A DNA stretch of 64,000 bases from Clostridia bacterium (GTDB taxonomy: Bacteria; Bacillota; Clostridia; UMGS1883; UMGS1540), in the NCBI GenBank assembly GCA_045535515.1, contig JAZSLT010000016.1, forward strand, positions 11,598-75,597. Reading direction: 5' to 3'. How positions within the stretch are numbered: the stretch's first letter is position 1; each line of letters begins with the position of its first letter. Position numbers and translations under genes: made by a program. Below, piece by piece: positions 2,380-63,251 of this stretch. The notes under the pieces are model-generated. The model did not search any database, was not told the origin of the DNA, and saw only the letters and a list, made by a program, of their open reading frames with translations.

Positions 2380-2497
2380 GCCTTTTTTATAAAGAAACAG
2401 AAATTTTGCAAAGTGACTTGTTTTGCCTTCTTTTTTGTGATATAATGTACGCATGCATGTTATATCCATAAAAGGAATAAAAAGGGAGGAAAAAAGT

Positions 2498-3298
2498 ATG
2501 GGATTTTTACAGGGAAAAACAGCGATTATTACGGGTGCAGGCTTTGCCGCGCTCTCTGACGGCCGATGCGGCTCTATTGGTTACGGCATCGCCGTAGCAT
2601 ACGCCAAGGAAGGGGCCAATCTCGTTATCACCGGCCGTAATGTTGCCAAGCTCGAAAAGGCGAAGGAGGAGCTGGAAAAGCTTTACGGCATCCGTGTACT
2701 GATAATTGCCGCCGATATTTGTGACGGGGCGGATAACGAAAGCGTTGTCAAAAATGTGGTGGACAAAACGATAGCGGAATTCGGCAGAATTGATGTTCTT
2801 ATTAACAACGCACAAGCCTCTGCGTCCGGTGTGCCGATACAGGAGCACACAACAGAGCAGTTTAATCTGGCACTTTATTCCGGTCTGTATGCGACCTTCT
2901 ATTATATGAAGGCCTGCTATCCGTACCTCAAGGAAACAAAGGGAAGTGTGATTAACTTCGCATCCGGTGCCGGCCTTTTCGGCAACTACGGCCAATGCTC
3001 GTATGCTGCCGCAAAGGAAGCTATCCGCGGTCTTTCCCGCGTAGCCGCTACCGAATGGGCAAAGGATGGCATTAACACCAATATTATCTGTCCGCTTGCG
3101 TGGACAGCACAGCTGGAAAACTTCCAGAAGGCGTATCCCGATGCCTTCCAGGCCAATGTAAAGATGCCGCCTGCCGGTCATTTTGGCGACTCGGAGCTGG
3201 AAATCGGCAGAGTATGCGTACAGCTGGCCTCGCCTGACTTTAAGTACATGAACGGCGAAACACTCACACTAGAAGGCGGAATGGGACTCCGTCCGTAA
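2498..3298 (+). CDS. SDR family NAD(P)-dependent oxidoreductase
   Basis: ATG at 2498 preceded by AAGGGAGG. TGAGFAA glycine-rich Rossmann motif, NNAQ and YxxxK (YAAAK) catalytic motifs. Hairpin at 3311-3334 follows. Confidence 0.8.
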   Translation: MGFLQGKTAIITGAGFAALSDGRCGSIGYGIAVAYAKEGANLVITGRNVAKLEKAKEELEKLYGIRVLIIAADICDGADNESVVKNVVDKTIAEFGRIDVLINNAQASASGVPIQEHTTEQFNLALYSGLYATFYYMKACYPYLKETKGSVINFASGAGLFGNYGQCSYAAAKEAIRGLSRVAATEWAKDGINTNIICPLAWTAQLENFQKAYPDAFQANVKMPPAGHFGDSELEIGRVCVQLASPDFKYMNGETLTLEGGMGLRP

Positions 3299-3357
3299 GA
3301 GAACATAGTTGTAGGGCAGAGATTTCTGCCCTACAAATTCTATACAGGGAGAAGTGT

Positions 3358-4242
3358 ATGCAGTACTACGCACCGGATTATTATACGGCATTTTCCTGCC
3401 TTGGAAGTGCGTGCCGGCACACCTGCTGTCGCGGCTGGGAAATTGACATAGATGCCGAAACCTACGCGCGCTACCAAAAGGAAGAGGGCGCGTTTGGTGC
3501 ACGCCTTCGCGCCGCCATAATGAAAGATGAGAGCGGCGCACATTTTCGCCTGGGAGAGGACGAGCGGTGTCCCTTTTTAAGTCGTGATAATCTGTGCGAC
3601 ATTATCATAGAGCTTGGCGAGGAGGCGCTTTGCGCTATTTGTACCGACCATCCGCGCTACCGCAATTTCTTTGAAAACCGCACGGAAATTGGCCTCGGCC
3701 TTGCCTGTGAGGCGGCGTGCGGGCTGATTTTGTCGGGCAAAACAAAACCTGAAATGCGTTCACTTGGCGGAGAGGGGAACGGTACCTGTACGCCGGAGGA
3801 ACAGCTTTTTTTCGCGCTCAGGGCGGAAATTCTCGAGGTCATTTTTGCGGCTGATACGGCGGAGGAGGCTATGGAAACCTTGGCGGCGCGCTTTTCGCTT
3901 TGCGAGCCGGAGCTGGATTGGGCGGCCTTTTACGGCGGTTTAGAAATCCTCCATGCTTCTTGGGCGGATAAGGTGAAGACTCTTTCCGAAAAAAGGGAAC
4001 AGGCGCCGATTTCAGACCTTCCGAAAAAACAGCTTATGGCCTATTTCGTTTATCGCCATCTGGCAGACGGACGGGAGGATGGCCGCTATGTGCCCCGCAT
4101 TTCGTTTGCCCTGCATGCCACGAAAATCATAAGCCGCCTTTCTTCATCCGATGCGGAATTTTTGGATACGGCGCGCCGGTATTCGGAGGAAGTGGAATAT
4201 GCGGCCGAAAATATGGAGCGGGTGCTTTCCGTTTTGGAATAA
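3358..4242 (+). CDS. YkgJ/FliB-like cysteine-cluster protein (flagellin lysine-N-methylase family)
   Basis: N-terminal FSCLGSACRHTCCRGWEIDIDAETYARY matches the Cx4Cx3CC-GW-I signature I recall for FliB/YkgJ proteins; 294 aa. Confidence 0.55.
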   Translation: MQYYAPDYYTAFSCLGSACRHTCCRGWEIDIDAETYARYQKEEGAFGARLRAAIMKDESGAHFRLGEDERCPFLSRDNLCDIIIELGEEALCAICTDHPRYRNFFENRTEIGLGLACEAACGLILSGKTKPEMRSLGGEGNGTCTPEEQLFFALRAEILEVIFAADTAEEAMETLAARFSLCEPELDWAAFYGGLEILHASWADKVKTLSEKREQAPISDLPKKQLMAYFVYRHLADGREDGRYVPRISFALHATKIISRLSSSDAEFLDTARRYSEEVEYAAENMERVLSVLE

Positions 4243-4339
4243 AAATAAAAAAAGAGGGAACTTTCTGCGCACCCGGGCCGTCTTACATAGTGAACATAGA
4301 GAAAAGCTAAAAAATACTTAATGCAAAAGGAGAATGAAA

Positions 4340-5203
4340 ATGCAGAAAAAGAGAATACTGGCCCTGCTTTTGGCTGCCATGATGATATGCACCATGGCCG
4401 GTTGCCAAAGCGAGAACGGTGGGGAGGAGCCCCCGAAGGTAGAAACGGGGGAATCCGTGGCAACACCTGTGCCGGAAAGCACAGAGACGCCTTCCTCGGA
4501 AGTAGTGGCAGACCCGACAGCACCGGTACAATCGGAAAAACCGGCAGACAAGCCCGCGGCGAAACCGGCTGCAAAGCCGGCAGATACACCCGAGGGGAAG
4601 CCTGTTCAGAAACCGGCCGAGGCGCCTGAGGCAGCGCCCGCCCCGAAACCAGCGGAGAAGCCTGTGGTAGTACCCACCCCGAAACCGGCTGAGAAACCTG
4701 ATGCAGCACCCACCCAGAAACCGACGGAGAAGCCTACGGCGGCACCTACCCAGAAGCCGACCGCGGCTCCCTCCGAGGCACCAACGGCAAAACCGCAGGA
4801 AGCCAAAACCGTGGGACAAATTCTTTTGGCAGATTTTAAGGCCAAGGCCGGCTCGGCAGAGGGCGCGGAAGAATTAGCCAACGCCCTGTCTTCTAATTCT
4901 ATCCTGCCTTTCTTTGGCGCCACTATGCCGGTAGAGCCGGGACTTCTGTCCGGCTTTGGCAATACGGAGATAAAAGGTTTTCGTGAAGGGGCCATGTTCG
5001 CGCCTATGATTGGGGCCATTCCCTTTGTAGGCTATGTGTTCGTGCTGGAGGATGGTGTGAGCGCGGGTGACTTTGTTGCCACCTTAAAAAAGAGCGCAGA
5101 CCTTCGCTGGAATATCTGTGTGGAGGCGGAAGAAATGGTTACCGGCACGGTAGGGAATAAGGTATTCTTCGTGATGTGCCCCAAGGATTTTTCTGAGGAA
5201 TAA
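4340..5203 (+). CDS. lipoprotein with long Lys/Pro/Ala/Thr-rich low-complexity linker and C-terminal globular domain
   Basis: Signal peptide with lipobox (LLLAAMMICTMAGC). About 110 aa of KPAAKPA/EKPT-type repeats, then a roughly 130 aa C-terminal domain. ATG at 4340 has better SD spacing than 4334. Confidence 0.65.
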   Translation: MQKKRILALLLAAMMICTMAGCQSENGGEEPPKVETGESVATPVPESTETPSSEVVADPTAPVQSEKPADKPAAKPAAKPADTPEGKPVQKPAEAPEAAPAPKPAEKPVVVPTPKPAEKPDAAPTQKPTEKPTAAPTQKPTAAPSEAPTAKPQEAKTVGQILLADFKAKAGSAEGAEELANALSSNSILPFFGATMPVEPGLLSGFGNTEIKGFREGAMFAPMIGAIPFVGYVFVLEDGVSAGDFVATLKKSADLRWNICVEAEEMVTGTVGNKVFFVMCPKDFSEE

Positions 5204-5264
5204 GATACCAAAAACAAAGACGAGCGCCTCTTTTTGCGTTCGTTTTTGTGTATAGAGGTGCAGT

Positions 5265-6665
5265 ATGGTTTTTTCAAGTATTCCGTTTTTATATTATTTT
5301 CTGCCGCTATGTATCCTCGTTTATACGGCGGCACCCAGAAAGTGCAAAAACATCGTATTGCTCGCGTTTAGTCTGTCATTTTACGCGTGGGGCGAACCGA
5401 AATATGTTTTTTTGATGGTAGCGACCATCGTGGTAAACTACGGACTCGCGTTAGGCGTGGGGAAGTATAGAGGAAAAACCCTCGCGAAGTGCTTTTTGTG
5501 GACGGCTGTTTTATTTGACATAGGGTGTCTCGGTTATTTCAAGTATGCCGATTTCTTCATCCAAAACTTTAACATGGCCACAGGGCAATCTGCAAAGCTT
5601 TTGCAGGTGGCGCTGCCCATCGGCATCAGCTTTTATACATTTCAGACGCTCAGCTATGTCATCGATGTATACCGCGGCGATGCAGAGGCGCAAAGAAATC
5701 CGATTACCCTTGCGACTTATATAACACTTTTCCCACAGCTGATTGCCGGTCCCATTGTGCGCTATGTGGATGTAGAGCGCGAGCTTTGCACGCGCGTGCA
5801 CACCACCGAAAAGACGGCAGAGGGCATCCGCCGCTTTATTATCGGGCTTTCCAAAAAGGTACTGCTTGCCAATACCTTGGGCGAGCTTTGCGCGGCTTTT
5901 TCCCAAAGCGGCGAAAAATCCGTCCTCTTTTATTGGCTGATGGTGGTGGCGTATATGCTGCAGGTCTACTTCGATTTTTCCGGCTATAGCGATATGGCGA
6001 TTGGCCTTGGAAAAATCTTTGGGTTTCATTTTCTGGAAAACTTCCGCTATCCGTTTATCTCCCGCAGCATTACAGAATTCTGGCGGCGATGGCACATATC
6101 TTTGGGCAGCTGGTTTCGCGACTATGTGTATATACCCTTAGGCGGCAACCGCGTCAGGGCGGGAAGACTTCTCGGTAACATCTTTGTCGTCTGGTTTCTG
6201 ACAGGCTTCTGGCACGGCGCTGAATGGAATTTTATCGTGTGGGGCGTATATTTTGGTGTGCTGCTCACGCTGGAAAAGCTATTTTACCGGAATTTTGTGG
6301 AGAGAAGTAAAGTTTTCGGGAACCTGTATGTTTTATTCTTTGTAGCTATCAGCTTTGCCATTTTCAGCGCAGGCTCTCTCTCCGGCGCACTGGAGATGGT
6401 AGGCGGTATGTTTGGCAAAGGCAATTTGCCGCTATCGTCCGGTGCCTTTTTGTATAACCTTCGCAGCTACGGCATAATTTTGGCCGTGGGTATGCTGGCG
6501 GCCACACCCATCCCGAAGCGCATCCATGCGTGGATTATGACGAAAAAAGGGCCGGCGACCGTGTGGGGCATACTGGAAATACCGCTATTGGCCCTGCTGC
6601 TGCTTTTGGCAACGGCTTTTCTGGCGGACGGTGCCTTCAATCCATTTTTGTACTTCAGATTTTAA
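5265..6665 (+). CDS. MBOAT family membrane-bound O-acyltransferase (DltB/AlgI-like)
   Basis: 466 aa polytopic protein with N-term MVFSSIPFLYYFLP and the conserved FWRRWHISLGSWFRDYVYIPLGGNR His motif of MBOAT enzymes. Confidence 0.85.
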   Translation: MVFSSIPFLYYFLPLCILVYTAAPRKCKNIVLLAFSLSFYAWGEPKYVFLMVATIVVNYGLALGVGKYRGKTLAKCFLWTAVLFDIGCLGYFKYADFFIQNFNMATGQSAKLLQVALPIGISFYTFQTLSYVIDVYRGDAEAQRNPITLATYITLFPQLIAGPIVRYVDVERELCTRVHTTEKTAEGIRRFIIGLSKKVLLANTLGELCAAFSQSGEKSVLFYWLMVVAYMLQVYFDFSGYSDMAIGLGKIFGFHFLENFRYPFISRSITEFWRRWHISLGSWFRDYVYIPLGGNRVRAGRLLGNIFVVWFLTGFWHGAEWNFIVWGVYFGVLLTLEKLFYRNFVERSKVFGNLYVLFFVAISFAIFSAGSLSGALEMVGGMFGKGNLPLSSGAFLYNLRSYGIILAVGMLAATPIPKRIHAWIMTKKGPATVWGILEIPLLALLLLLATAFLADGAFNPFLYFRF

Positions 6666-6677
6666 GGAGGGATTTGC

Positions 6678-7784
6678 GTGAGAGGAAAACGAAAAAATAT
6701 ATGCTTTATCCTTTTCTTTTGCCTTTTGCTTTTTGGTACGAGCATCCTTTGCATGGTAAGCCCCGCGGAGGTATTTTCCCAGAGCGAGCGGCGGGAGCTG
6801 GCGACCTTTCCGGCCTTAACTGCCGCCTCCTTCCAAAGCGGAGAGTTTGCGGAAGGGTTTGAAACCTACGCGACAGAGCGGTTCCCCTATCGCGATACCT
6901 TTCGTGCGATTAAGGCGTGGTTTTCCGCAAATGCGATGGGAAAACTCGATAACAACGGCCTTTTTGTAGCGGATGGGCATATCTCCAAAATAGACAGCAC
7001 AGAAAACCCCGCCATGATGGAGCATGCGGCCGAGCGGTTTTCGTATTTATACCGGTCGTTTATCGAGAATAAAAACGCCCATGTATATCTGGCCATCATA
7101 CCTGACAAAAACTTTATTCTCGCACCGCAAAACGGCTATCCTTCTCTGGATTATGCCGGCTTTACGGAAAGGATGCGCCAAAAGCTTCCGTTCATGACAT
7201 ATATTGATGTGACGGACATGCTGTCGCTTTCCGATTATTATACCACCGACACGCATTGGCGGCAGGAAAAAATACAGGATGTGGCGGTGAAAATAGGCGA
7301 TGCCATGGGCACAGATGTTCGGGCGGACTACGAGGAGCTTACGCTCGAAAACAAATTTTACGGGGTGTATAAGGGACAGCTGGCACTTCCCTTTACGCCG
7401 GATACACTTGTTTACTTGCAAAATGAGGAACTTCGCGGCTCCCGGGTGACCTATTATGATACCGGAAAACCCAAAAAGGGCGAGATGTACAACATGGAAA
7501 AGGCGGCAGGGAAGGACCCGTATGAGATGTTCTTATCCGGCACCACGCCGCTTGTTACCATCGAAAACCCAAGCGCGAAAAGCGACAGGGAGCTCGTCAT
7601 GTTCCGCGACTCCTTCGGCAGCAGCATAGCGCCGCTTCTTTCTGCCGGCTACCGCAAAATAACGCTCGTGGATATCCGCTATATGCAAAGCAGCTTCGTG
7701 GGGAATTTTGTAGATTTTGAAAATGCGGATGTGCTCTTTTTATACAGCACCACGCTTTTAAATAACAGCTTGGCACTCAGATAA
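6678..7784 (+). CDS. DHHW-family extracytoplasmic partner of MBOAT (AlgJ/AlgX-like)
   Basis: GTG start 6 nt after AAGGAGGG. N-terminal signal/anchor, then TTDTHWRQ (D-x-H-W) motif. Adjacent to MBOAT as in known MBOAT-DHHW pairs. Terminator hairpin at 7784-7820. Confidence 0.6.
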   Translation: MRGKRKNICFILFFCLLLFGTSILCMVSPAEVFSQSERRELATFPALTAASFQSGEFAEGFETYATERFPYRDTFRAIKAWFSANAMGKLDNNGLFVADGHISKIDSTENPAMMEHAAERFSYLYRSFIENKNAHVYLAIIPDKNFILAPQNGYPSLDYAGFTERMRQKLPFMTYIDVTDMLSLSDYYTTDTHWRQEKIQDVAVKIGDAMGTDVRADYEELTLENKFYGVYKGQLALPFTPDTLVYLQNEELRGSRVTYYDTGKPKKGEMYNMEKAAGKDPYEMFLSGTTPLVTIENPSAKSDRELVMFRDSFGSSIAPLLSAGYRKITLVDIRYMQSSFVGNFVDFENADVLFLYSTTLLNNSLALR

Positions 7785-7889
7785 AAAAGAAGGCATGCAA
7801 AACATGCCTTCTTTTTTATCTGGCATAGAATTTTTATCCGTATAAAAAGATTTTTTCTGTTTATACTACAAGAGGAAGGAGTGAAACCC

Positions 7890-8516
7890 ATGAAAAGCAT
7901 AACATGTATTATTTTGCTTATGGCGTTATGTTTGCTTGGCGGCTGCAACATGGCGGAAGACCGGTTGCCCATGCCCTCATCCATGCCGACCATAAAGCCT
8001 TCTATGCTTCCATCTATTATCCCCTCTGACATGCCGATAGAGATGGCGACGGAAAGCCCCGTCGCCCTCGGCGCCTTTACGACAGAAATTTTGGACACTA
8101 CGCCGGCGCGCGTCCATAACATAGAGCTTTGCGCGCAAGCCTTAAATGGTCTGGTGGTAGAGGGCGGTGCCGAGTTTTCCTTTAACGGTGCCGTGGGTGA
8201 GCGTACAAGCGAAAAAGGATATGGGGAGGCGCTTATGCTGGTGGGCGGAGAAAGAAAGATGGCCATAGGCGGGGGCGTGTGTCAAATCAGCAGTACCTTG
8301 TACAAGGCGGCAGAAGCGGCCGGCATGGAAATTCTGGAGCGGCACAACCACACCGGAGAAGTACATTATATCGAAATCGGGCAGGATGCGGCCGTATCCT
8401 TCGGGGAACAGGATTTTCGGTTTCGTAATCCGTATGCCGAACCGGTAAAAATTGCCATCACGATAGAAAATACAAAAGTGGGAGCGGTTTTATACAAAGT
8501 TGTAACAAACATGTAA
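7890..8516 (+). CDS. VanW family lipoprotein
   Basis: Lipobox LLGGC; GGGVCQISSTLYKAA matches the VanW domain core motif. Confidence 0.65.
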   Translation: MKSITCIILLMALCLLGGCNMAEDRLPMPSSMPTIKPSMLPSIIPSDMPIEMATESPVALGAFTTEILDTTPARVHNIELCAQALNGLVVEGGAEFSFNGAVGERTSEKGYGEALMLVGGERKMAIGGGVCQISSTLYKAAEAAGMEILERHNHTGEVHYIEIGQDAAVSFGEQDFRFRNPYAEPVKIAITIENTKVGAVLYKVVTNM

Positions 8517-8545
8517 CAAAAAAGTTTACATTTTTTAAAAAAGAG

Positions 8546-8574
8546 ATTGACATAAAGGCTTATTTGTGGTATAC
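8546..8574 (+). promoter_or_regulatory. strong sigma-A promoter of veg
   Basis: TTGACA, 17 nt, then TGgTATACT, an extended -10. Lies about 75 nt upstream of the veg ATG. Confidence 0.7.
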
Positions 8575-8649
8575 TGTAAACAAGGATACCGCTATATATT
8601 GCGTTTGCAAGACGGCGGAGGCCGGAAACAGAAGAAGGATGTGTTAGGA

Positions 8650-8910
8650 ATGATTGTACGCAGTGATTTGACGAAAATGAAAGAAAATTTAGACAGCATT
8701 GTGGGACAGGAAATTCAGTTGACAGCACGAAGGGGACATAAACGGGCGGTAACGAGAAGGGGTGTAATTGAAAAGACATACCCCAGCATTTTTATCGTTC
8801 GTCTTGAAAATACGCGGGATAGTGCACAGGACGGCCGTCGCATTTCCTATAGCTACGCCGATGTTCTCACAAAGGTAATTGAGGTAACGCCCTTTGTGGC
8901 AGCACAATAG
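8650..8910 (+). CDS. veg: Veg family protein (biofilm stimulator Veg, DUF1021)
   Basis: 86 aa; TARRGHKRAVTRRGVIEKTYPSIFIVRL...RISYSYADVLTKVIEV closely parallels B. subtilis Veg (RVSYSYADILTK). Terminator at 8923-8966. Confidence 0.8.
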   Translation: MIVRSDLTKMKENLDSIVGQEIQLTARRGHKRAVTRRGVIEKTYPSIFIVRLENTRDSAQDGRRISYSYADVLTKVIEVTPFVAAQ

Positions 8911-9015: not shown

Positions 9016-9498
9016 ATGCCCGGAATAAAGGAATATAACAGACGGCGTGCCGCAGAGTATGCGAAAAAATGGGCCTATGAAAGAAACCCGGCTTATTTTG
9101 ATTTTACGGATATTGGCGGAGATTGCACAAATTTTATCTCTCAATGCCTGTATGCCGGAAGCGGCGTGATGAACTACACGCCGGAGGTGGGGTGGTATTA
9201 CCGGAATATAAACGACCGCTCCCCTTCGTGGACGGGTGTGGAATTTCTGTATGATTTTCTGGTTACTAACACCGAGCGTGCCCCGTTTGCAAGAGAATCG
9301 GTGCCGGAAGAAATGGAGATAGGCGATGTCATTCAGCTGGGGAACGGAGAAAAATTCTACCATTCCCTGCTGGTAACGGGGATACGCGGTGGGGAGATTT
9401 ATGTAGCCGCCCATAGCTTCAATGCGTATATGCGTGCCCTTTCAAGCTACACCTTTTCCGAAGTCCGGTTTTTGCATATAGAAGGCGTGTATATTTGA
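9016..9498 (+). CDS. putative amidase-domain protein (Cys-peptidase-like)
   Basis: 160 aa; WAYERNPAYFDFTDIGGDCTNFISQCLYAG resembles the putative amidase domain family of Firmicutes. SD is sequestered in a hairpin (see findings). Confidence 0.5.
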   Translation: MPGIKEYNRRRAAEYAKKWAYERNPAYFDFTDIGGDCTNFISQCLYAGSGVMNYTPEVGWYYRNINDRSPSWTGVEFLYDFLVTNTERAPFARESVPEEMEIGDVIQLGNGEKFYHSLLVTGIRGGEIYVAAHSFNAYMRALSSYTFSEVRFLHIEGVYI

Positions 9499-21227: not shown

Positions 21228-23594
21228 ATGAAAAAAAGAGTTTTAGGCTTGTTTTTAGGCATCGTTATAATCATGTCGATTTCAACCATTTTTCCGGTTT
21301 GCGCGTTGGAAGAAGCAAGCGGAACTTGTGGTGATAATGTTACATGGACTCTAAATGACGCCGGAAGACTTGTTATACGAGGGGAAGGTGATATGACCAG
21401 CGCGCCATGGCTAACGGAATACAAGAGTGATATTACGGAAATCAAAATAAGAGATGGCGTGACATCCATTTCTCAGAATGCGTTTAATGGATGTATCAAT
21501 CTGGTGGATGTTGATATTGCTGATACTGTTACAACAATTGGAGGAAATGCATTTTATAAATGTGAAAGCCTGACATCTGTGTATTTACCCGAAAGCGTTT
21601 CGACTGTAGGAGGATGTGCGTTTGGATATTGCACAAACTTAGAGGAAATAAACTTTCCGGATGGTGTAACTGTTATTAGGGACAGCATGTTTTTCCGATG
21701 TGTTAATCTAAAAGAAGTGACGCTTCCGGATACAATTATAGACATCGAACGACTTGCCTTTTATGCCTGTGAGAGTCTGGAGGAACTTCAATTACCAGAA
21801 GGGCTGGAAACAATCGGGAGGGAGGCTTTTGCTTTTACCACACTTGGCGATTTGGTTATTCCTGAAAGTGTTAAAAGCATTACCTACCCAGCCTTTGATT
21901 ATAATAGTTATATCTGCCTGAATGTATATGCCGGAAGTTACGCCTTAGAATATGCGCAACAATATAACAAACCGTATGTGATTATAGAGAGGGAAAAAAC
22001 GCCTGCTGAAAAACTTTGCGACATAATCAATGCACAGACCGCAAATTCTTGCGAAGTTAATGCCAAATCACAAACAGTAACCCTTTTATCCGATGTGCAA
22101 CTGTCAGAAACGATTGCAATACCAACCGGCGGGAGCATCATATTGCAAATTGGCGACTTCAGCATTTTAGGGGCAAACGACCTCGATGCTATCCATGTCC
22201 CGACGGATGCCCTCATAAATATTTATGGTTCGGGAATAATTAAGGGCGGAAATGTTACGGAAAGTGGTTATTATGGCGGTAACGGAATTTCCAGTTCGGG
22301 GGAGCTACTTATAAGCGGTCCAACCCTTATTGGCGGCGATGCCCTTGCGGAATATGGATATGCAGGAGCCGGCGTTGAAACATGTGGCGCGGCGCCAACT
22401 TATTTTACAGAAGGTATAATTCAAGCAGGCGAAGGTTGTTATCAAAAAAGGGTGATGTTTGAAAGACTGAATCTTACGGTTGTTAAAGAAAGTGATGATG
22501 GCATAAATTACACGGTTGCTGCAAATTCGTTTTCTAACAATAAAAAATACTTAAAAGCAATTAAAATTTCAAACAATTTATCAGCAGCATCCAAACTTTC
22601 TGCTTTATTAAATGAAATACAAGCGGACACTTGTAGCATTGTCGGGGATGTAATAACATTAAACAAGGATTTTTCTTGCCCTTACGAAATCTATATACCA
22701 ATAGGCGATGCAATCATACTTGATTTTAATGGACATACTGTTACAACATATGATTTCTTTATTCCGTTCATAATACCTGCGCAGGCAGAGATTACTCTTA
22801 AAGGAACAGGTGTGCTTACCAATAAAGAACAAGAGTCCGGGGCGACATCCGGGATGGGCGGAAATGCCGCAGTACTTCCTAACGAAGGACAACTTACCAT
22901 CGATGGAATTACTGTCCGGGGGGCTGGACTATGCGGAATCAATAATTCCGGAGAATTGACAGTAAGTAGCGGAAAAATAATCGGAAGCGATAGTGCGAGC
23001 GGGAGAGAGGCTATATTTAATAGCGGAACGATATGGATATCCGGCGGGGAGATTATAGGTGGTAATGCTACCCGCGACGGCGGAGATGGCGGAGACGGGA
23101 TAGTCGGGCGTGCGTCAGTATCGCCGGACGGCATATATCCTATTAAACTGCATGGTGGTATATTGTGCGGCGGTAAAGGCTTGGGCGATGGTGAAAACGG
23201 AAGCGCAATCAGCACAAGATTTAATGTGGGTGAGGATTGCATCGCATACGAAAGTGATGATGGCGTAAATTATTCTGTATTAGAGGGTACAAGTTGTAGT
23301 GCGCGTTATCTCCAAATTGCAAACAAAAGCGGCAATGCTATATTTACAAGTAATATAGCATATGATGGCACAAATTGGTCATGTAACCTGCATTTGCATA
23401 GTGACGATGCCATAAGCGGTATTGTCTATGCGGCAGTTTATGAAGATAAACAGTTAAAAAAATTAACCCCATTTTCTGCGACAACACAAATTCCCGTCAG
23501 CCTTGCATGCGAAGAAGAACAAACGATTAGAATCTTCTGGTGGGATTCAAATTTAGAACCCAAAAGTCGAACGGTAGAGATAGAAGTGCAATAA
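21228..23594 (+). CDS. secreted cell-surface protein with BspA-type leucine-rich repeats and Gly-rich beta-helix-like repeats
   Basis: Signal peptide. Repeated units such as IPESVKSIGxxAF and VTSISQNAFNGC are typical of the LRR_5/BspA class. Downstream GG(N/D)G-rich repeats. Gene is AT-richer than its flanks. Confidence 0.65.
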   Translation: MKKRVLGLFLGIVIIMSISTIFPVCALEEASGTCGDNVTWTLNDAGRLVIRGEGDMTSAPWLTEYKSDITEIKIRDGVTSISQNAFNGCINLVDVDIADTVTTIGGNAFYKCESLTSVYLPESVSTVGGCAFGYCTNLEEINFPDGVTVIRDSMFFRCVNLKEVTLPDTIIDIERLAFYACESLEELQLPEGLETIGREAFAFTTLGDLVIPESVKSITYPAFDYNSYICLNVYAGSYALEYAQQYNKPYVIIEREKTPAEKLCDIINAQTANSCEVNAKSQTVTLLSDVQLSETIAIPTGGSIILQIGDFSILGANDLDAIHVPTDALINIYGSGIIKGGNVTESGYYGGNGISSSGELLISGPTLIGGDALAEYGYAGAGVETCGAAPTYFTEGIIQAGEGCYQKRVMFERLNLTVVKESDDGINYTVAANSFSNNKKYLKAIKISNNLSAASKLSALLNEIQADTCSIVGDVITLNKDFSCPYEIYIPIGDAIILDFNGHTVTTYDFFIPFIIPAQAEITLKGTGVLTNKEQESGATSGMGGNAAVLPNEGQLTIDGITVRGAGLCGINNSGELTVSSGKIIGSDSASGREAIFNSGTIWISGGEIIGGNATRDGGDGGDGIVGRASVSPDGIYPIKLHGGILCGGKGLGDGENGSAISTRFNVGEDCIAYESDDGVNYSVLEGTSCSARYLQIANKSGNAIFTSNIAYDGTNWSCNLHLHSDDAISGIVYAAVYEDKQLKKLTPFSATTQIPVSLACEEEQTIRIFWWDSNLEPKSRTVEIEVQ

Positions 23595-40242: not shown

Positions 40243-41568
40243 TCACTTTCTTTTTTTAATATCAATGCTGTTTTCGTCCCGATTATCTAAAAGCTCACCC
40301 GGCGTAAAACGCCCCTGCCGGATTTTAGGCGGAGTGGACAGCGCAGGGCGCGACATCACGGCATAGCGGACCGATTCGGGCGCGTGCGTAATTTCATGGG
40401 GACTGTCGGACGCGTCCTCGGGCGAGTGGGGGTCATACAAAAGCGCAGGAAGGGTTCGTATAATGTGAATACAGTTTTCAAAAAACGAGATTTTCTTTCC
40501 GCGCAAGTATTCCCGCAGTACGCGCCAGCCGGCCACGCGGCGGTTGTCGGCACGAATAAGGCCGCATAAGCCCTTTTCGGCCATAATTTCCACACCGCTT
40601 TTCCCCGTGTCCTGCCGCCGGTTCCATAAATCGGGGGAGGCCACCGTATAGGAAATTTTTTCCTCCGGCGGCGAGAGAGACAGAATTTCCTGCGCCGCCT
40701 CGGAAAGGGTAAGTCCGCTTTTGTAAAGCTCGCGGTAGCAGGTAAGATTGCCCTCGCCATCTACGGCCCACCAGTGACAGGCCGTCATATCCAGACCATA
40801 GTCAAGGCTCCGAAACCGCTTGTGATAGGCAGGGATAGCCTCGGGCGGCCGGACATGTGTCCGGCGGGAAAACTCGCCGAAGAACTGGCCCTCAAAGATG
40901 TCCCAATCCCCATAGAGGAGCGCCCTTTTTTCGTTTTCGGGGAGAAGCATAAGGCGGGAGAGGTAGTCGGCATCCTTTTCCATTAAAAACCGGTTTTCCT
41001 CCACGCGCGCAGGGATAAAAATGCGCGTTCGCTCCTCGCCGAATACCGTAAACGGCGGCGCAGGGGAAATAAATCGCGCCTTCACCCAGCCGTGTCCGCG
41101 GCTGCCGGGATTTGTGGTGCTTTTCATTTGTTTCGGGTATCCGCTCGTGCCGCGCAGGCGGCTGAGCATATATAGGTATTGGTATTCTGTAAAATGCGTC
41201 AGCTCGTCAAAACGAATGACATCATATTCGGCCGATTGATACATCATCACATCCGTATCCGCCGCCAGAAAACCAAATTCAATCAGGGAACCGTTGGAAA
41301 GCGTTAATTTGTGCTTGGTGCTCTGGTACTTATAAAGGGGCCTTGGAATAAGCTCCAGCGCCGTCAGAATGAGAGAACGCTCCAGCGCAGGGAATGAGGA
41401 GCGGAGCAGGAGCTGGCGGCTTTTGGGGTAGCGCATGGCATAGAGAAAGGCATCCACCACCTGCCCGTACGATTTGCCGCCTCCGGCTGCACCGCCGTAC
41501 AAAACCTCGTCGGCCGCGGCCTCGACAAAGGCCGCCTGCTTTCGGGTAATGGAAAGGGTATATTCCAT
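40243..41568 (-). CDS. phage terminase large subunit
   Basis: Walker A GGAAGGGKS near the N-terminus and a C-terminal nuclease-like half; start at MEYTLSITRKQ. No other phage genes adjacent. Confidence 0.8.
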   Translation of the reverse strand: MEYTLSITRKQAAFVEAAADEVLYGGAAGGGKSYGQVVDAFLYAMRYPKSRQLLLRSSFPALERSLILTALELIPRPLYKYQSTKHKLTLSNGSLIEFGFLAADTDVMMYQSAEYDVIRFDELTHFTEYQYLYMLSRLRGTSGYPKQMKSTTNPGSRGHGWVKARFISPAPPFTVFGEERTRIFIPARVEENRFLMEKDADYLSRLMLLPENEKRALLYGDWDIFEGQFFGEFSRRTHVRPPEAIPAYHKRFRSLDYGLDMTACHWWAVDGEGNLTCYRELYKSGLTLSEAAQEILSLSPPEEKISYTVASPDLWNRRQDTGKSGVEIMAEKGLCGLIRADNRRVAGWRVLREYLRGKKISFFENCIHIIRTLPALLYDPHSPEDASDSPHEITHAPESVRYAVMSRPALSTPPKIRQGRFTPGELLDNRDENSIDIKKRK

Positions 41569-41569
41569 T

Positions 41570-41746
41570 TCATTCGACCACGCGGATTTTGACCTCCACA
41601 TTCTGGGCGTGCGGAGTCTCCTCGTCTGCAAGCTTTAAAAGACATTCCGAAACCTTGAGCCGGTCCTTCACATCCGCCGCCTCATCGCGGAGAACAGAGG
41701 TCAGAAAGGCTTGCACTTCCTTTTTGTCGGCTACTTTTTTTCGCAT
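41570..41746 (-). CDS. small phage-associated protein upstream of terminase (possible small-subunit remnant)
   Basis: About 58 aa from MRKKVADKKEVQAFL..., GGAGG 7 nt upstream. Stop is separated from the terminase ATG by 1 nt. Start coordinate is +/-1 nt. Confidence 0.3.
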   Translation of the reverse strand: MRKKVADKKEVQAFLTSVLRDEAADVKDRLKVSECLLKLADEETPHAQNVEVKIRVVE

Positions 41747-43713: not shown

Positions 43714-44730
43714 TTACGACATCGTAACATGCTTATACATTTTTTCTACCGCTTCGTTCATATTCACGGGGGAGAGTTTAATGTACGGATGTTCGCTTTG
43801 GAACACAACAAAAATCTGATGTGCAAAGCCTTGTCCCATCCAGTCCACTTTGTCAAAATCCAATACAACCTCTTCAAATTTCGAAAGCTGATTACAAACG
43901 CGCCGCGCCTGTGAGCGGGAGACGGGTGAAGTCTCAAAAATATTTTTAAGCGGAATTTGCGTTTTGACAAAGCGCGAGTCCGCATCGGAATATTCGTCAA
44001 AAATTTCTTTGGCCTGTTTTTTGGAATGATTGGAAAGGGACATAATAACAATGGTTCCCTTGTGGTTTGAAAATTCGGGAAAATCAAGCGTCCGGCTATC
44101 GTCATATTTATTTACCGCGAACAACTTTCCGGAGGAATAGATTAAAAAACCATCCATTATCTTGGAGCTGAAAAAGATGCCTTCTCCCGAATGTCTTGTT
44201 TCATCGGTGGTAAGCTTGCCTTTGAACAGTTCGCAAACGGCATCATCATAGCTGTCAAGGTTAAAATGCGTTTTAATCTTTTCAAATATACCTACGCCGT
44301 CATCGATGATAGTAACCACAGTTTCGAGGAAATTGCGCGAAACCGTAATAACTGCGCGCTCTGCCTGCGAATGGTCAATGACATTATTTATCATTTCGCT
44401 GAAGGTGTATTCCCATATACCCTTCACATTCTCGTCTAAATCCGAAATGATGTCTTTCAGATATTTAGAATACGCATAACTGTCATCATCTAAATCTCCG
44501 GCATTTCTATATAAAACAAAGGTGGTTTTCTGATTGATAAGCGCATATTCGCCTCTTTTTAGTTTTTCAATAGTTCCTTGTTGTAAAAGTTTTTTGATGT
44601 ACGAATGAACGGTGGATTCGTTGATGCCAAATGCTTTTTGTACGCTGGGCACAATGCTGTCGCTCTTTTTGCTAATCTTTTCCAGGATATATTGTATAAT
44701 GGCGTTTTTCTTTTCCGCATCAAATTTCAT
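43714..44730 (-). CDS. single-chain winged-HTH / GHKL-ATPase / STAS-like (DUF4325-type) protein
   Basis: N-term wHTH (VHSYIKKLLQQGTIEKLKRGEY). Central GHKL-like region (INNVIDHS...DDGVGIF). C-terminal VLDFDKVDWMGQGFAHQIF resembles STAS domains of the anti-anti-sigma type. About 40% GC against a roughly 58% background. Confidence 0.45.
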   Translation of the reverse strand: MKFDAEKKNAIIQYILEKISKKSDSIVPSVQKAFGINESTVHSYIKKLLQQGTIEKLKRGEYALINQKTTFVLYRNAGDLDDDSYAYSKYLKDIISDLDENVKGIWEYTFSEMINNVIDHSQAERAVITVSRNFLETVVTIIDDGVGIFEKIKTHFNLDSYDDAVCELFKGKLTTDETRHSGEGIFFSSKIMDGFLIYSSGKLFAVNKYDDSRTLDFPEFSNHKGTIVIMSLSNHSKKQAKEIFDEYSDADSRFVKTQIPLKNIFETSPVSRSQARRVCNQLSKFEEVVLDFDKVDWMGQGFAHQIFVVFQSEHPYIKLSPVNMNEAVEKMYKHVTMS

Positions 44731-44790
44731 ATGCACACCTCTTTTATGCTCTATTATATGCTTATTATACAGGCTTATTCAAATAAAGTC

Positions 44791-62513: not shown

Positions 62514-62548
62514 AAGAATCACCGCTTCTCTCAAGTTATATACAAAAT

Positions 62549-62578
62549 ATTATACGCTTTTTGCCCGTTATTGTCAAT
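62549..62578 (-). promoter_or_regulatory. sigma-A promoter of thrS with short leader
   Basis: Minus strand TTGACA, 18 nt, TATAAT, about 35 nt upstream of the thrS ATG. Confidence 0.5.
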
Positions 62579-62626
62579 GATAAATCCTCAAAAAACTCTT
62601 TTTTTAATGGAAAAGAAAAAAATTCA

Positions 62627-62655
62627 AAGTTTTTCTTGACATATAATTCCGACTA
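62627..62655 (+). promoter_or_regulatory. sigma-A promoter of rpsU
   Basis: TTGACA, 17 nt, TATAAT; about 135 nt leader. Confidence 0.55.
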
Positions 62656-62790
62656 TTGTATAATATGTATGTTTATGGTAGTTATTGAGATGCTTTTTTA
62701 CATGTGGAAACGGGATGCCGCAAGGCTGTGTACTTAGCATATTACCGTAAAATATTCCCGAATTTGTAGTACTCGGAGGGAGGGATTTAG

Positions 62791-62967
62791 ATGTCGGAAA
62801 TCAGAATTAAAGATAATGAATCTTTAGATAGCGCATTGCGCAGATTTAAGCGCCAGTGTGCAAAGTCCGGTGTTCTGTCTGAAATCAGAAAGAGAGAACA
62901 TTATGAAAAGCCAAGCGTAAAGCGTAAGAAAAAGTCGGAAGCGGCAAGAAAGCGCAAGTTTAAGTAA
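62791..62967 (+). CDS. rpsU: 30S ribosomal protein S21 (not in ORF track)
   Basis: Manual translation gives [58 protein letters not shown] after GGAGGGAGGG. Terminator at 62971-62998. Confidence 0.85.
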
Positions 62968-63105
62968 GAGAAAAGCGGCCAGCATGGGCCGCTTTTTTAA
63001 TGGTCTATACCGCGGAAACGGAAAATAGGAGGCATGGAAAAAATTTTTTAAAAAAGTATTGACAAATGTTTTTGTCTGTGGTATTATAACAAAGTCGCAA
63101 GAAAC

Positions 63106-63181
63106 GCGCCATTAGCTCAGCTGGTAGAGCAACTGACTCTTAATCAGTGGGTCCCGGGTTCGAGTCCCTGATGGCGCACCA
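63106..63181 (+). tRNA. tRNA-Lys (anticodon CUU)
   Basis: GCGCCAT/ATGGCGC acceptor, D-arm GCTC-AGCTGGTA-GAGC, anticodon stem ACTGA/TCAGT with loop CTCTTAA, T-loop TTCGAGT, 3' CCA. One T-stem mismatch. Confidence 0.75.
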
Positions 63182-63183
63182 AA

Positions 63184-63227
63184 GAAACAGAACGATTTAG
63201 ATGATATTCTTGATCGTTCTGTTTTTT
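63184..63227 (+). terminator. intrinsic terminator after tRNA-Lys
   Basis: AACAGAACGAT...ATCGTTCTGTT 11-bp stem followed by a T-run. Confidence 0.7.
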
Positions 63228-63251
63228 ATATAAAGTATGTTTTTAAAACGC

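What the first reader, a model, noticed from the sequence alone, without database searches (positions are those of the whole stretch)
3358..7784. Putative surface-protein modification cluster: FliB-like lysine methylase, Lys/Pro/Ala-rich lipoprotein and MBOAT/DHHW O-acyltransferase pair
Four consecutive same-strand genes.
- A YkgJ/FliB-family cysteine-cluster protein; the family includes flagellin lysine-N-methylase.
- A lipoprotein whose mature N-terminal half is about 110 aa of KPAAKPA/EKPT repeats, extremely rich in Lys, Pro, Ala and Thr, which makes it an obvious substrate candidate for lysine methylation and/or O-linked modification.
- An MBOAT (DltB/AlgI-like) membrane acyltransferase.
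- Its extracytoplasmic DHHW-family partner.

MBOAT-DHHW pairs are thought to acylate extracytoplasmic polymers or proteins. Co-location with a FliB-like enzyme and a low-complexity lipoprotein suggests a dedicated post-translational decoration system for one surface protein. The organism shows no flagellar genes in this window.
Basis: partly seen in the sequence, partly recalled or inferred. Interest (0 to 1): 0.55.

Follow-up and report, generated by a model that had tools for sequence, protein, structure and literature searches.

The report
Lipoprotein-partnered MBOAT–SGNH envelope acyltransferase module
Three of the four genes (a lipoprotein with an undescribed folded domain, a PatA-like membrane acyltransferase and a PatB1-like transferase) form a strongly conserved cell-envelope acylation module, which suggests that this well-studied two-enzyme system has a dedicated third protein in many gut Clostridia; the FliB-like gene is only a chance neighbour.

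Summary
All four ORFs exist as described. The grouping is only partly right.

**What holds.**
- The lipoprotein, MBOAT and DHHW genes travel together. 144 of 148 evaluable loci from two collection scans keep the MBOAT/DHHW pair next to the lipoprotein gene. No other neighbour is conserved.
- The MBOAT has the catalytic His277 and the C-terminal FXYXXF acyl-shuttle tyrosine (FLYFRF).
- The DHHW protein is a full-length homologue of B. cereus PatB1 with Ser312, D332-x-R-Y and D191-x-H-W.
- The pair is therefore a complete PatA/PatB-type O-acyl(acetyl)transferase.

**What does not hold.**
- The FliB-like gene is absent from all 159 scanned related loci. Its own homologues sit in unrelated contexts.
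- The Pro/Ala/Glu/Lys-rich segment is a variable tether (8–425 aa, usually acidic), not a conserved substrate.

**The conserved part of the lipoprotein.**
- It is the 133-aa C-terminal domain, which has no Pfam family and no close solved fold.
- It is more conserved than the DHHW enzyme.
- A hairpin plus U-run separates it from the MBOAT gene in most loci.

**Best reading.** The lipoprotein is a stoichiometric, acceptor-binding partner of the acyltransferase. This role is inferred, not shown.

The parts
4334..5203 (+). Lipoprotein gene (289 aa). Signal peptide 4334-4402; lipidated Cys24 at 4403-4405; disordered-type tether, residues 25-156, at 4406-4801; conserved C-terminal domain, residues 157-289, at 4802-5200.
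   Evidence: ORF. Lipobox present in 245 of 265 homologues. Next to MBOAT/DHHW in 144 of 148 evaluable loci.
4406..4801 (+). Low-complexity Pro/Ala/Glu/Lys/Thr tether. It contains a 36-bp (12-aa) imperfect tandem repeat of 4.3 copies at 4609-4763.
   Evidence: Composition P31 A24 E17 K15 T13 of 132 residues. TRF result. Family-wide linker length 8-425 aa, median 70, Glu-rich.
4802..5200 (+). Conserved 133-aa alpha/beta domain with no Pfam family. Polar invariants are Y234 (5033-5035), W259 (5108-5110) and C262 (5117-5119).
5214..5249 (+). Terminator-like hairpin (14-bp stem) whose 3' arm runs into a U tract, between the lipoprotein and MBOAT genes. Only 15 nt, holding the ribosome-binding site, follow before the MBOAT start codon.
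   Evidence: -22 kcal/mol, z = -4.4, 0 of 200 shuffles. An equivalent hairpin plus T-run occurs in 93 of 118 distinct homologous gaps.
5265..6665 (+). PatA-type MBOAT acyltransferase (466 aa). Catalytic His277 at 6093-6095. C-terminal acyl-shuttle motif F461-L-Y463-F-R-F466 at 6645-6662.
   Evidence: Pfam MBOAT 99 bits. FXYXXF at the C-terminus in 65 of 65 full-length orthologues, and the W-H-x-S/T-L motif. Motif function from PMC12148441.
6678..7784 (+). DHHW-family SGNH-like transferase (368 aa), a PatB1 homologue. N-terminal membrane anchor at about residues 8-27 (6699-6758). D191-T-H193-W194 at 7248-7259. Nucleophile Ser312 at 7611-7613. D332-I-R334-Y335 at 7671-7682.
   Evidence: Pfam DHHW 36.7 bits. 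PDB 5v8d PatB1, E = 2.3e-14 over residues 36-363. These residues are invariant in 68 orthologues. Block definitions from PMC9487903.
7783..7817 (+). Strong intrinsic terminator that ends the module (15-bp stem, then U6).
   Evidence: -19.6 kcal/mol, z = -5.7, 0 of 200 shuffles.
3358..4242 (+). FliB/YkgJ-like cysteine-cluster protein (294 aa). This is an adjacent gene that does not belong to the module.
   Evidence: NF038110 at 176 bits, but only profile positions 1-135 of 373. Absent from 159 scanned related loci. Its homologues sit in unrelated contexts.

Best explanation
The region holds a self-contained three-gene cell-envelope O-acyl (most likely O-acetyl) transferase module.

**Shown by sequence features and homology**
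- The MBOAT protein has everything a PatA-type enzyme needs: the catalytic His277, and Tyr463 in the C-terminal FXYXXF motif. This motif takes an acyl group from a cytoplasmic acyl-CoA and carries it to the outer face of the membrane.
- The membrane-anchored DHHW protein has the PatB1 active site (Ser312, Asp332/Arg334, Asp191/His193). This site accepts the acyl group on serine and passes it to a hydroxyl of an extracytoplasmic acceptor.

**Shown by comparative genomics**
- The upstream lipoprotein is a dedicated partner of this pair.

**Inferred**
- Its conserved 133-aa domain is held at the membrane surface by a lipid anchor and a tether of arbitrary length. It binds and presents the acceptor (an envelope glycan or glycolipid), or docks on the enzyme pair as a specificity subunit. 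It would play the role that carbohydrate-binding modules or AlgF-type adaptors play in other systems.
- The conserved leaky terminator after its gene makes it more abundant than the two enzymes, as with binding lipoproteins of ABC transporters.
- In other Bacillota the same role is taken by DUF4358 lipoproteins.

The FliB-like gene upstream is unrelated.
For: **Enzyme pair**
- MBOAT 99 bits and DHHW 36.7 bits.
- PatB1 (5v8d) E = 2.3e-14 over the full length.
- His277, FLYFRF, Ser312, DIRY and DTHW are conserved in 65-68 orthologues. Their roles are as established for PatA/PatB and PatB1 (PMC12148441; PMC9487903).

**Linkage**
- 77 of 79 species-representative loci have the order lipoprotein, MBOAT, DHHW.
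- The two exceptions are extra copies in genomes that also carry the trio.
- The same holds in a second scan seeded with divergent members. Overall 144 of 148 evaluable loci.
- The next most frequent neighbour occurs in only 15 of 78 sources, so general synteny does not explain the linkage.
- The gene order varies in places (L003: MBOAT-DHHW-lipoprotein; two paralogues in L003, L004, L032 and L062), yet the adjacency persists.

**Partner rather than passenger**
- Mean identity to the window is 63.5% for the domain, 62.8% for MBOAT and 55.1% for DHHW. The domain exceeds DHHW in 80 of 81 loci.
- Tether length of 8-425 aa shows the domain can work right at the membrane.

**Stoichiometry**
- A hairpin plus U-run occurs in 93 of 118 gaps. 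The window hairpin has z = -4.4.
- The same element follows the DUF4358 gene in Pusillibacter-type loci.

**Equivalent third component elsewhere**
- A DUF4358 lipoprotein lies next to MBOAT-DHHW in P. faecalis, C. estertheticum, B. thuringiensis, B. toyonensis and B. cereus. In Paenibacillus it lies next to a truncated DHHW gene, with no MBOAT gene annotated in the stretch.
- The two lipoprotein families were never found in the same locus.

**Fold**
- Fusions of the domain to SLH and Cu_amine_oxidN1 wall-associated modules exist.
Against: - No experiment or structure shows the lipoprotein touching the enzymes or binding a glycan.
- hhalign finds no sequence homology between the domain and DUF4358 (probability 0.6%).
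- The characterised relatives are described in the literature read here as two-protein systems, so a third subunit is not mechanistically required: PatA/PatB, PatA1/PatB1 and the proposed CcsH/CcsI. Two pairs examined here also lack a third gene: the Bacillus pair closest to PatB1 (L177) and Monoglobus (L169).
- A gene for an abundant protein followed by a leaky terminator and then modifying enzymes is also the classic layout for a substrate.
- The acceptor polymer is unknown. No polysaccharide synthesis genes are conserved nearby.
Confidence: 0.45

Rival explanations
1. The lipoprotein is itself the acceptor. The MBOAT/DHHW pair O-acylates the lipoprotein, or a glycan attached to it. This would be a dedicated protein-decoration system, which is the core of the first reader's idea without the FliB part.
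For: - Strict gene linkage.
- The lipoprotein gene comes first and is followed by a conserved leaky terminator, so it is made in excess over the enzymes. This resembles precursor or structural genes placed ahead of their modification enzymes.
- An invariant Tyr234 and lone invariant Cys262 sit in an extracytoplasmic domain.
- The tether is Thr/Ser-rich in many members.
Against: - All characterised DHHW/AlgX/PatB-type transferases act on glycans (PMC9487903; PMC12148441).
- No Ser or Thr is invariant in the domain.
- The whole domain is conserved more strongly than the enzyme. That fits a working subunit better than a passive target.
- Acyl transfer from a Ser ester to Tyr or Cys would be energetically uphill, according to the pKa argument in PMC12148441.
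Confidence: 0.2
2. One reading: a four-gene system in which the FliB-like enzyme methylates lysines, and MBOAT/DHHW acylates the Lys/Pro/Ala-rich half of the lipoprotein.
For: - The four genes are adjacent on one strand, with no terminator-like structure in the 91-nt gap between the FliB-like and lipoprotein genes.
- NF038110 scores above its cut-off.
Against: - No FliB-like gene was found in any of the 159 scanned loci carrying the lipoprotein domain.
- FliB-like homologues lie next to unrelated genes. In genome JAZQCN the FliB-like gene is on a separate contig from the trio (L086 against L032).
- FliB-like proteins carry no signal peptide and are expected to be cytoplasmic, whereas the linker is exported. 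This point is inference.
- Lys is only 11% of the linker here, and linkers elsewhere are acidic.
Confidence: 0.03
3. The lipoprotein is a regulator or counter-activity of the module. It might be an inhibitor or gate of the transferase, or a de-acylating enzyme that uses the invariant Cys, by analogy with Ape1 in the patA-patB-ape1 clusters.
For: - Conserved linkage.
- Lone invariant Cys262 in a W-N-x-C-x-x-A-[E/D] motif.
- The DUF4358 trios of the B. cereus group and C. estertheticum also sit next to GDSL esterases and a deacetylase. Acylation and de-acylation genes therefore do cluster.
Against: - There is no invariant His or other catalytic partner for Cys.
- There is no similarity to any hydrolase fold.
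- Expression in excess of the enzymes is unusual for an antagonist.
- DUF4358, the positional equivalent, does not share the Cys motif.
Confidence: 0.1
4. The linkage has no functional meaning: the lipoprotein is merely a co-transcribed passenger.
For: The role of the domain is unknown. Some MBOAT/DHHW pairs exist without it.
Against: - Adjacency is kept in 144 of 148 loci across several Clostridia families while all other neighbours change.
- It survives gene-order rearrangements and duplications.
- A different lipoprotein family fills the same slot in distant lineages.
Confidence: 0.03

Closest known systems
PatA1/PatB1 of Bacillus cereus/anthracis (MBOAT + DHHW-family SGNH; O-acetylation of secondary cell wall polysaccharide)
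   Same: - Same two protein families, adjacent and in the same order.
- The DHHW protein aligns with PatB1 over its full length (E = 2.3e-14) and has the same Ser / D-x-R-Y / D-x-H-W active-site blocks.
- The MBOAT carries the catalytic His and the C-terminal FXYXXF motif.
   Different: - About 25% identity only.
- The acceptor polymer is unknown.
- A conserved third gene for a lipoprotein precedes the pair here. None was detected around the Bacillus pair closest to PatB1 (L177), and none is mentioned in the papers read.
PatA/PatB of Gram-negative bacteria (peptidoglycan O-acetylation) and the general MBOAT-SGNH acyl-tyrosine shuttle mechanism
   Same: The catalytic logic is the same. The MBOAT His loads an acyl group onto the Tyr of the C-terminal FXYXXF motif, and the SGNH Ser then transfers it to a polymer hydroxyl (PMC12148441). 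The motif here is FLYFRF.
   Different: - Gram-negative PatB belongs to a different SGNH family (DUF459), not DHHW.
- Their third clustered gene is the esterase Ape1, not a small lipoprotein.
DUF4358 (PF14270) lipoprotein + MBOAT + DHHW trios of other Bacillota
   Same: - A small lipoprotein of about 130-150 mature residues lies directly next to an MBOAT-DHHW pair (next to a truncated DHHW gene alone in Paenibacillus), and in Pusillibacter and C. estertheticum in the same order as here.
- A hairpin plus U-run follows the lipoprotein gene in Pusillibacter-type loci.
- The two lipoprotein families were never found in the same locus.
   Different: - No detectable sequence homology: Pfam gives no hit and hhalign probability is 0.6%.
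- The conserved motifs differ (W-N-x-C here; G-G-A-W-Y-P in DUF4358).
- DUF4358 has extra helices.
- DUF4358 itself has no known function. Only one paper in the searched library mentions it, in a proteomics table.
AlgI/AlgJ/AlgF/AlgX and WssH/WssI/WssF/WssG (alginate and cellulose O-acetylation)
   Same: These are MBOAT-SGNH systems that need additional extracytoplasmic non-catalytic or adaptor proteins. They give a precedent for accessory subunits in this kind of machine (named in PMC12148441; the adaptor role of AlgF is from my own knowledge).
   Different: - They are Gram-negative and embedded in polymer synthesis operons.
- I did not compare the lipoprotein domain with AlgF directly. From my own knowledge AlgF has a beta-sandwich fold, unlike the alpha/beta fold predicted here.
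DltB/DltD/DltX/DltC (teichoic acid D-alanylation)
   Same: MBOAT plus an SGNH-like partner plus a small extra protein. The best NCBIfam hit of the MBOAT is DltB.
   Different: - The DltB score of 169 bits is far below the cut-off of 375.
- No dltA or dltC was seen among the neighbouring genes.
- The FXYXXF motif is fused to the MBOAT here, whereas in Dlt it is on the separate DltX, so the lipoprotein is not a DltX analogue.
FliB flagellin lysine-N-methylase (for the upstream gene only)
   Same: The N-terminal cysteine-cluster region matches NF038110 above its cut-off. Cysteines lie at 14, 19, 23, 24, 71, 80, 92 and 95.
   Different: - Only 135 of 373 profile positions are matched, and the protein is about 80 residues shorter than the profile.
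- No flagellin or other flagellar gene was seen next to it, or next to its homologues.

Membership tests
MBOAT, bacterial PatA-type polymer acyltransferase | Pfam MBOAT domain above the gathering score | tested here: met
   PF03062, 99.3 bits against a cut-off of 27.
MBOAT, bacterial PatA-type polymer acyltransferase | Universally conserved catalytic histidine | tested here: met
   His277 lies in W-H-I-S-L. The W-H-x-S/T-L motif is present in 76 of 77 orthologues. Its role is described in PMC12148441.
MBOAT, bacterial PatA-type polymer acyltransferase | C-terminal FXYXXF acyl-shuttle hexapeptide | tested here: met
   The protein ends in F461-L-Y-F-R-F466. The motif is present in 65 of 65 full-length orthologues and is defined.
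MBOAT, bacterial PatA-type polymer acyltransferase | Auto-acylation from acetyl-CoA | not testable with these tools
   This needs biochemistry.
DHHW family (PatB1-like SGNH transferases) | Pfam DHHW above the gathering score and homology to PatB1 | tested here: met
   PF14286, 36.7 bits against a cut-off of 25. 5v8d, E = 2.3e-14, residues 36-363.
DHHW family (PatB1-like SGNH transferases) | Nucleophilic Ser, Block II D-X-R-Y and Block V D-H-H-W (Asp/His of the triad) | tested here: met
   Ser312, D332-I-R334-Y335 and D191-T-H193-W194 are invariant in 68 orthologues. The first His of DHHW is Thr here. The blocks are defined in PMC9487903.
DHHW family (PatB1-like SGNH transferases) | O-acetyltransferase activity on secondary cell wall polysaccharide | not testable with these tools
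   The acceptor is unknown. No conserved polysaccharide genes lie nearby.
DltB (TIGR04091 equivalog) | Score above the equivalog cut-off, with the dltACD(X) context | tested here: not met
   168.9 bits against a cut-off of 375. The neighbours are SDR, FliB-like, VanW and Veg.
FliB flagellin lysine-N-methylase (NF038110) | Full-length match to the family model | tested here: not met
   The score of 176 bits exceeds the cut-off of 85, but only profile positions 1-135 of 373 align.
FliB flagellin lysine-N-methylase (NF038110) | Genomic association with flagellin or flagellar genes | tested here: not met
   None is present in the window ORFs scanned or in the homologue contexts L084-L086.
DUF4358 (PF14270) | Sequence match to the family | tested here: not met
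   No Pfam hit even at E of up to 10. hhalign of A2 against A3: probability 0.6%, E = 0.1.
DUF4358 (PF14270) | Same fold | tested here: inconclusive
DUF4358 (PF14270) | Lipoprotein encoded next to an MBOAT-DHHW pair | tested here: met
   Window. DUF4358 loci L167, L168 and L170-L175. In Paenibacillus L176 the DUF4358 gene lies next to a truncated DHHW gene only.
Bacterial lipoprotein | Signal peptide ending in a lipobox cysteine | tested here: met
   MKMQKKRILALLLAAMMICTMAG-C24. 245 of 265 homologues have a lipobox.

The most novel reading that the evidence does not exclude
Gram-positive MBOAT-DHHW acyltransferases are generally three-component machines. A small surface lipoprotein would be an obligate subunit that selects or delivers the acceptor. 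That lipoprotein is either the new domain found here or DUF4358, and the two may be remote homologues sharing a TiME/PknH-sensor-like fold. In the boldest version, the lipoprotein itself is the acyl acceptor, which to my knowledge would be the first MBOAT-dependent protein acylation in bacteria.
Probability: 0.3. Interest if true: 0.75.

Novelty: new variant of a known kind. Interest (0 to 1): 0.55.

Why it matters
- MBOAT-SGNH pairs acylate peptidoglycan, teichoic acids, secondary wall polysaccharides, alginate and cellulose. These modifications affect lysozyme and antibiotic resistance, S-layer anchoring and host recognition.
- The current model (PMC12148441) treats the non-Dlt, non-alginate/cellulose (AlgIJFX, WssHIFG) systems as two-protein machines. 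It leaves open how the SGNH partner finds its polymer, because that partner has no carbohydrate-binding module.
- A dedicated lipoprotein gene is strictly linked to the pair in a large clade of gut and rumen Clostridia, and DUF4358 is its positional counterpart in Bacilli and other Clostridia. This lipoprotein is a concrete candidate for the missing targeting or specificity factor.
- The finding gives a function-linked context to two uncharacterised families.
- It also corrects an annotation trap: 'flagellin lysine-N-methylase' assigned to a truncated FliB-like protein in a locus with no flagellar genes nearby.

Tried and rejected
- **Pfam, NCBIfam and PDB sequence searches on the C-terminal domain:** nothing meaningful (PrgI E = 0.15; FCPI E = 0.31).
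- **Foldseek against PDB:** best E = 0.024, TM 0.25, rejected as noise. The afdb50 library was unavailable.
- **Exact look-up of the window's FliB-like protein and of P0121 to identify the source contig:** not on record. The cluster look-up only showed an unnamed NCBI contig of 154 kb.
- **hhalign of the domain against DUF4358:** with full-length alignments only the signal peptides aligned. Domain against domain gave probability 0.6%. I therefore do not claim homology.
- **A DUF4358 HMM weakly hit the trio lipoproteins** (E of 1e-3 to 1e-6). I attribute this to the shared signal peptide and lipobox, and discount it.
- **The lipoprotein as a DltX-like acyl shuttle:** rejected, because the FXYXXF motif is already on the MBOAT C-terminus and the F-V-G-Y-V-F segment of the domain is an internal beta strand.
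- **The lipoprotein N-acetylation pathway of Bacillus (LhaT, PMC12345273):** it uses unrelated proteins.
- **Natural fusions of the domain to MBOAT or DHHW:** none found. The only fusions are to SLH and Cu_amine_oxidN1 domains.

Full report
**1. The observation**

Family scans agree with the labels, with caveats.
- ORF1 matches NCBIfam NF038110 'flagellin lysine-N-methylase' at 176 bits (cut-off 85), but only over profile positions 1-135 of 373. It scores below threshold on Pfam CxxCxxCC.
- ORF2 matches nothing except low-complexity models.
- ORF3 is MBOAT (99 bits). Its DltB equivalog score of 169 bits is far below the cut-off of 375.
- ORF4 is DHHW (36.7 bits, cut-off 25).

The four genes sit inside a longer co-directional run: SDR 2453-3298, then the four genes, then VanW 7881-8516, Veg 8566-8910 and Amidase_6 9016-9498. 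Shared strand therefore says little.

The transcription signals are as follows.
- A hairpin follows the SDR gene (3309-3336, z = -4.1).
- The 91-nt FliB-like/lipoprotein gap has no structure (z = +1.8).
- A 14-bp hairpin running into a U tract lies between the lipoprotein and MBOAT genes (5214-5249, -22 kcal/mol, z = -4.4).
- Only 12 nt separate the MBOAT and DHHW genes.
- A strong terminator follows the DHHW gene (7783-7817, z = -5.7).

**2. The enzymes are a complete PatA/PatB1-type pair**

The DHHW protein aligns over residues 36-363 with B. cereus PatB1 (PDB 5v8d, E = 2.3e-14). PatB1 is the only biochemically characterised DHHW member and is a secondary-cell-wall-polysaccharide O-acetyltransferase (PMC9487903).

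The PatB1 active-site blocks are present and invariant in 68 orthologues:
- the nucleophile Ser312 (RDSFGS);
- Block II D332-I-R334-Y335;
- Block V D191-T-H193-W194.

An N-terminal hydrophobic helix (residues about 8-27) should anchor the protein in the membrane.

The MBOAT has the universal catalytic His (His277 in WHISL). It ends in F461-L-Y463-F-R-F466, an exact FXYXXF. All 65 full-length orthologues keep this motif.

Anderson et al. 2025 showed that in PatA this Tyr is auto-acetylated from acetyl-CoA and donates the acetyl to the SGNH partner. They argue that all non-Dlt MBOAT-SGNH systems work this way (PMC12148441). The acyl relay is therefore complete with two proteins, and nothing in the chemistry demands a third.

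**3. The lipoprotein: what is conserved and what is not**

The protein has a lipobox (…TMAG-C24). A 132-aa segment follows with 23% Pro, 18% Ala, 13% Glu, 11% Lys and 10% Thr, including a 12-aa repeat of 4.3 copies. The last 133 residues (157-289) form the C-terminal domain.

Searching with that domain returned 1584 homologues of 128-233 aa. Many are about 165 aa, that is, signal peptide plus domain with hardly any linker. A profile search of 1.84 billion cluster representatives gave 477 clusters at E<1e-30.

In 269 family members:
- 245 of the 265 that start with Met have a lipobox;
- the linker is 8-425 aa (median 70);
- the linker is on average Glu-rich (22% Glu, then Thr, Pro, Lys, Asp);
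- 11 members carry two tandem domains.

The low-complexity half is therefore a generic, variable tether, not a conserved modification target.

Over 276 domain sequences the invariant residues are mostly aromatic or hydrophobic. The only polar invariants are Tyr234, Trp259 and Cys262, in a W-N-x-C-x-x-A-[E/D] motif.

**4. Gene linkage**

Three initial neighbourhood look-ups all showed the domain gene next to an MBOAT-DHHW pair. The arrangements differed, and two loci carried two paralogues, one with a short linker and one with a long acidic linker.

A scan of one genome per GTDB species returned 79 distinct loci.
- 77 have the order lipoprotein, MBOAT, DHHW.
- The two exceptions (L034, L046) come from genomes that also have the trio (L018, L010).
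- After clustering all ORFs of 78 sources (77 scan loci plus the window), only these three genes are conserved (77, 77 and 72 sources). The next family occurs in 15.
- The contexts differ from locus to locus, so this is a mobile three-gene module and not residual synteny.

A second scan of metagenome contigs was seeded with the most divergent members (41-50% identical to the window). It gave the same picture, down to MBOAT and DHHW identities of about 35-40%. Together, 144 of 148 evaluable loci have the pair next to the lipoprotein gene.

Named sources include Oscillospiraceae, Lachnospiraceae (Fusibacillus, Lachnoclostridium), Ruminococcus, Congzhengia and Limivicinus, mostly from ruminant and human gut.

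The domain is as conserved as the MBOAT and more conserved than the DHHW enzyme. Mean identities to the window are 63.5%, 62.8% and 55.1%, and the domain exceeds DHHW in 80 of 81 loci.

**5. The FliB-like gene is a bystander**

tblastn found no FliB-like gene in any of the 159 scanned loci.

Its own family consists of proteins of about 295 aa with precomputed Pfam hit PF27117, and some members are fused to a GNAT domain. Homologues lie next to unrelated genes:
- Mn-catalase, NAD kinase, ArgR and RecN in L084;
- UDG, MutY and an MFS transporter in L086.

L086 comes from the same genome (JAZQCN) as the trio locus L032, but from another contig. No flagellar genes were seen in the parts of the window I annotated. 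The window belongs to a spore-forming Clostridia chromosome (SpoIIGA, YqfD, YpeB).

**6. The intergenic hairpin is conserved**

In 93 of 118 distinct lipoprotein-to-MBOAT gaps a stable hairpin is followed directly by a T-run. Several more gaps have the hairpin with a weaker T-run, and about ten loci have gaps of 0-29 nt instead.

The sequences differ while the structure persists. Usually only 15-25 nt, holding the ribosome-binding site, separate the hairpin from the MBOAT start, which leaves no room for a separate promoter. The simplest reading (inference) is partial termination. The lipoprotein would then be made in excess of the enzymes, as with binding lipoproteins placed ahead of ABC-transporter permease genes, or structural genes placed ahead of their processing enzymes.

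**7. A parallel third component: DUF4358**

tblastn of the DHHW protein against PLSDB found 12 distant DHHW genes (24-32% identity). The lipoprotein domain found none.

The annotated contexts examined fall into these groups.
- **DUF4358, then MBOAT, then DHHW:** Pusillibacter faecalis and Clostridium estertheticum.
- **MBOAT, DHHW, then DUF4358:** B. thuringiensis, B. toyonensis and B. cereus, beside GDSL esterases, a polysaccharide deacetylase and a two-component system.
- **Truncated DHHW gene next to DUF4358, with no MBOAT gene annotated in the stretch:** Paenibacillus.
- **Further Pusillibacter-type loci** repeat the first arrangement.
- **Neither family within the stretch examined:** Monoglobus (L169) and the Bacillus pair closest to PatB1 (L177, 34.5% identity to PatB1).

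The two lipoprotein families never co-occur in a locus.

Profile-profile comparison detects no homology between them (probability 0.6%). Other observations point to a shared fold class.
- The top-ranked (non-significant) hhalign alignment pairs equivalent secondary-structure elements.
- The Pusillibacter-type DUF4358-to-MBOAT gap also carries a GC hairpin plus U-run.

I conclude that the two families are functional equivalents. They are possibly remote homologues, but that is not shown.

The searchable literature holds one incidental mention of DUF4358 and two papers that mention both DHHW and MBOAT. Neither those two nor the 2025 mechanism paper describes a third component.

**8. Mechanism**

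The steps rest on different kinds of evidence.
- **By homology and motif conservation:** acyl-CoA passes the acyl group through MBOAT His277 to Tyr463. DHHW Ser312 then takes it and transfers it to a hydroxyl on an extracytoplasmic acceptor.
- **By comparative genomics:** the lipoprotein is a dedicated partner.
- **By inference:** the partner works at the membrane surface, because tethers as short as 8 residues are tolerated. It is made in excess, and it binds or presents the acceptor or confers specificity.

Several observations point to acceptor binding:
- the aromatic-rich invariant set;
- the envelope ligand-sensor fold neighbours;
- the existence of SLH- and Cu_amine_oxidN1-fused versions;
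- the authors' own remark that PatB-type enzymes lack a carbohydrate-binding module.

None of these is proof.

The main rival is that the lipoprotein is itself acylated. This fits the gene order and the terminator. It is disfavoured by three points: no Ser or Thr is invariant, the conservation of the domain exceeds that of the enzyme, and all characterised relatives use glycans as acceptors.

The acceptor polymer cannot be named. No polysaccharide synthesis genes are conserved nearby, unlike the C. difficile ccsZABHI locus (PMC7710045).

**9. Verdict**

Remove the FliB-like gene and the 'Lys-rich substrate' idea. Keep the lipoprotein-MBOAT-DHHW unit and the attenuator.

The pair is a new member of a known kind. 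The strictly linked, undescribed lipoprotein domain and its DUF4358 counterpart make the whole a new variant of the MBOAT-SGNH paradigm. It is of moderate interest to the cell-envelope field and directly testable.

Noticed in passing
window 3358-4242; P0173, P0175, P0225, P0228: The FliB-like protein belongs to a large family of ~295-aa proteins (precomputed Pfam hit PF27117, absent from the local Pfam copy). PGAP-style rules would name them 'flagellin lysine-N-methylase', although only the N-terminal third of that model is matched. Some members are fused to a GNAT acetyltransferase domain. The contexts seen contain no flagellar genes.
   Followed up: partly
window 40243-41631 (-), 43714-44736 (-), about 44-46 kb: A phage terminase large-subunit gene and an HATPase_c + DUF4325 (STAS-like) gene lie in a stretch where GC falls to 0.42. 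This may be a prophage remnant or a defence island.
   Followed up: no
window 21228-23594 (+): A 788-aa BspA-type leucine-rich-repeat surface protein sits in a lower-GC stretch (0.44-0.45).
   Followed up: no
window 62001-64000: GC drops sharply to 0.375 at the end of the window.
   Followed up: no
L129, L130, L138, L143-L149, L152, L154, L156 (metagenome loci): In one lineage the gene between the lipoprotein and DHHW genes matches only MBOAT residues 126-265 at about 35% identity. The space between the flanking genes is about 1.1 kb, which suggests a strongly divergent or shortened MBOAT.
   Followed up: no
L114, L150, L163: The lipoprotein gene is followed directly by a DHHW-like gene with no MBOAT between them. 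This is a different gene order, or the MBOAT lies beyond the contig end.
   Followed up: no
P0241-P0247, P0259; P0331; P0335: Some family members carry two tandem copies of the domain. Others replace the lipid anchor with Cu_amine_oxidN1 or S-layer-homology (SLH) domains, which places the domain in the cell wall compartment.
   Followed up: partly
window 7881-8910; L169 7282-7602: A Veg (biofilm formation stimulator) gene lies just downstream of the MBOAT-DHHW pair, both in the window (after VanW) and in Monoglobus pectinilyticus. In Monoglobus the pair also sits beside mltG and rodA.
   Followed up: no
L168, L173, L174, L175: The DUF4358-MBOAT-DHHW trios on B. cereus-group and C. estertheticum megaplasmids are flanked by one or two GDSL esterases. 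The Bacillus loci also have a polysaccharide deacetylase. A HAMP sensor kinase is nearby in L168, L173 and L174, with a response regulator in L173. This looks like a regulated acylation/de-acylation island.
   Followed up: no
L177 (NZ_CP093325.1): A 5.5-Mb 'plasmid' record of Bacillus sp. N5-665 in PLSDB looks like a chromosome. It has only 25 annotated features.
   Followed up: no
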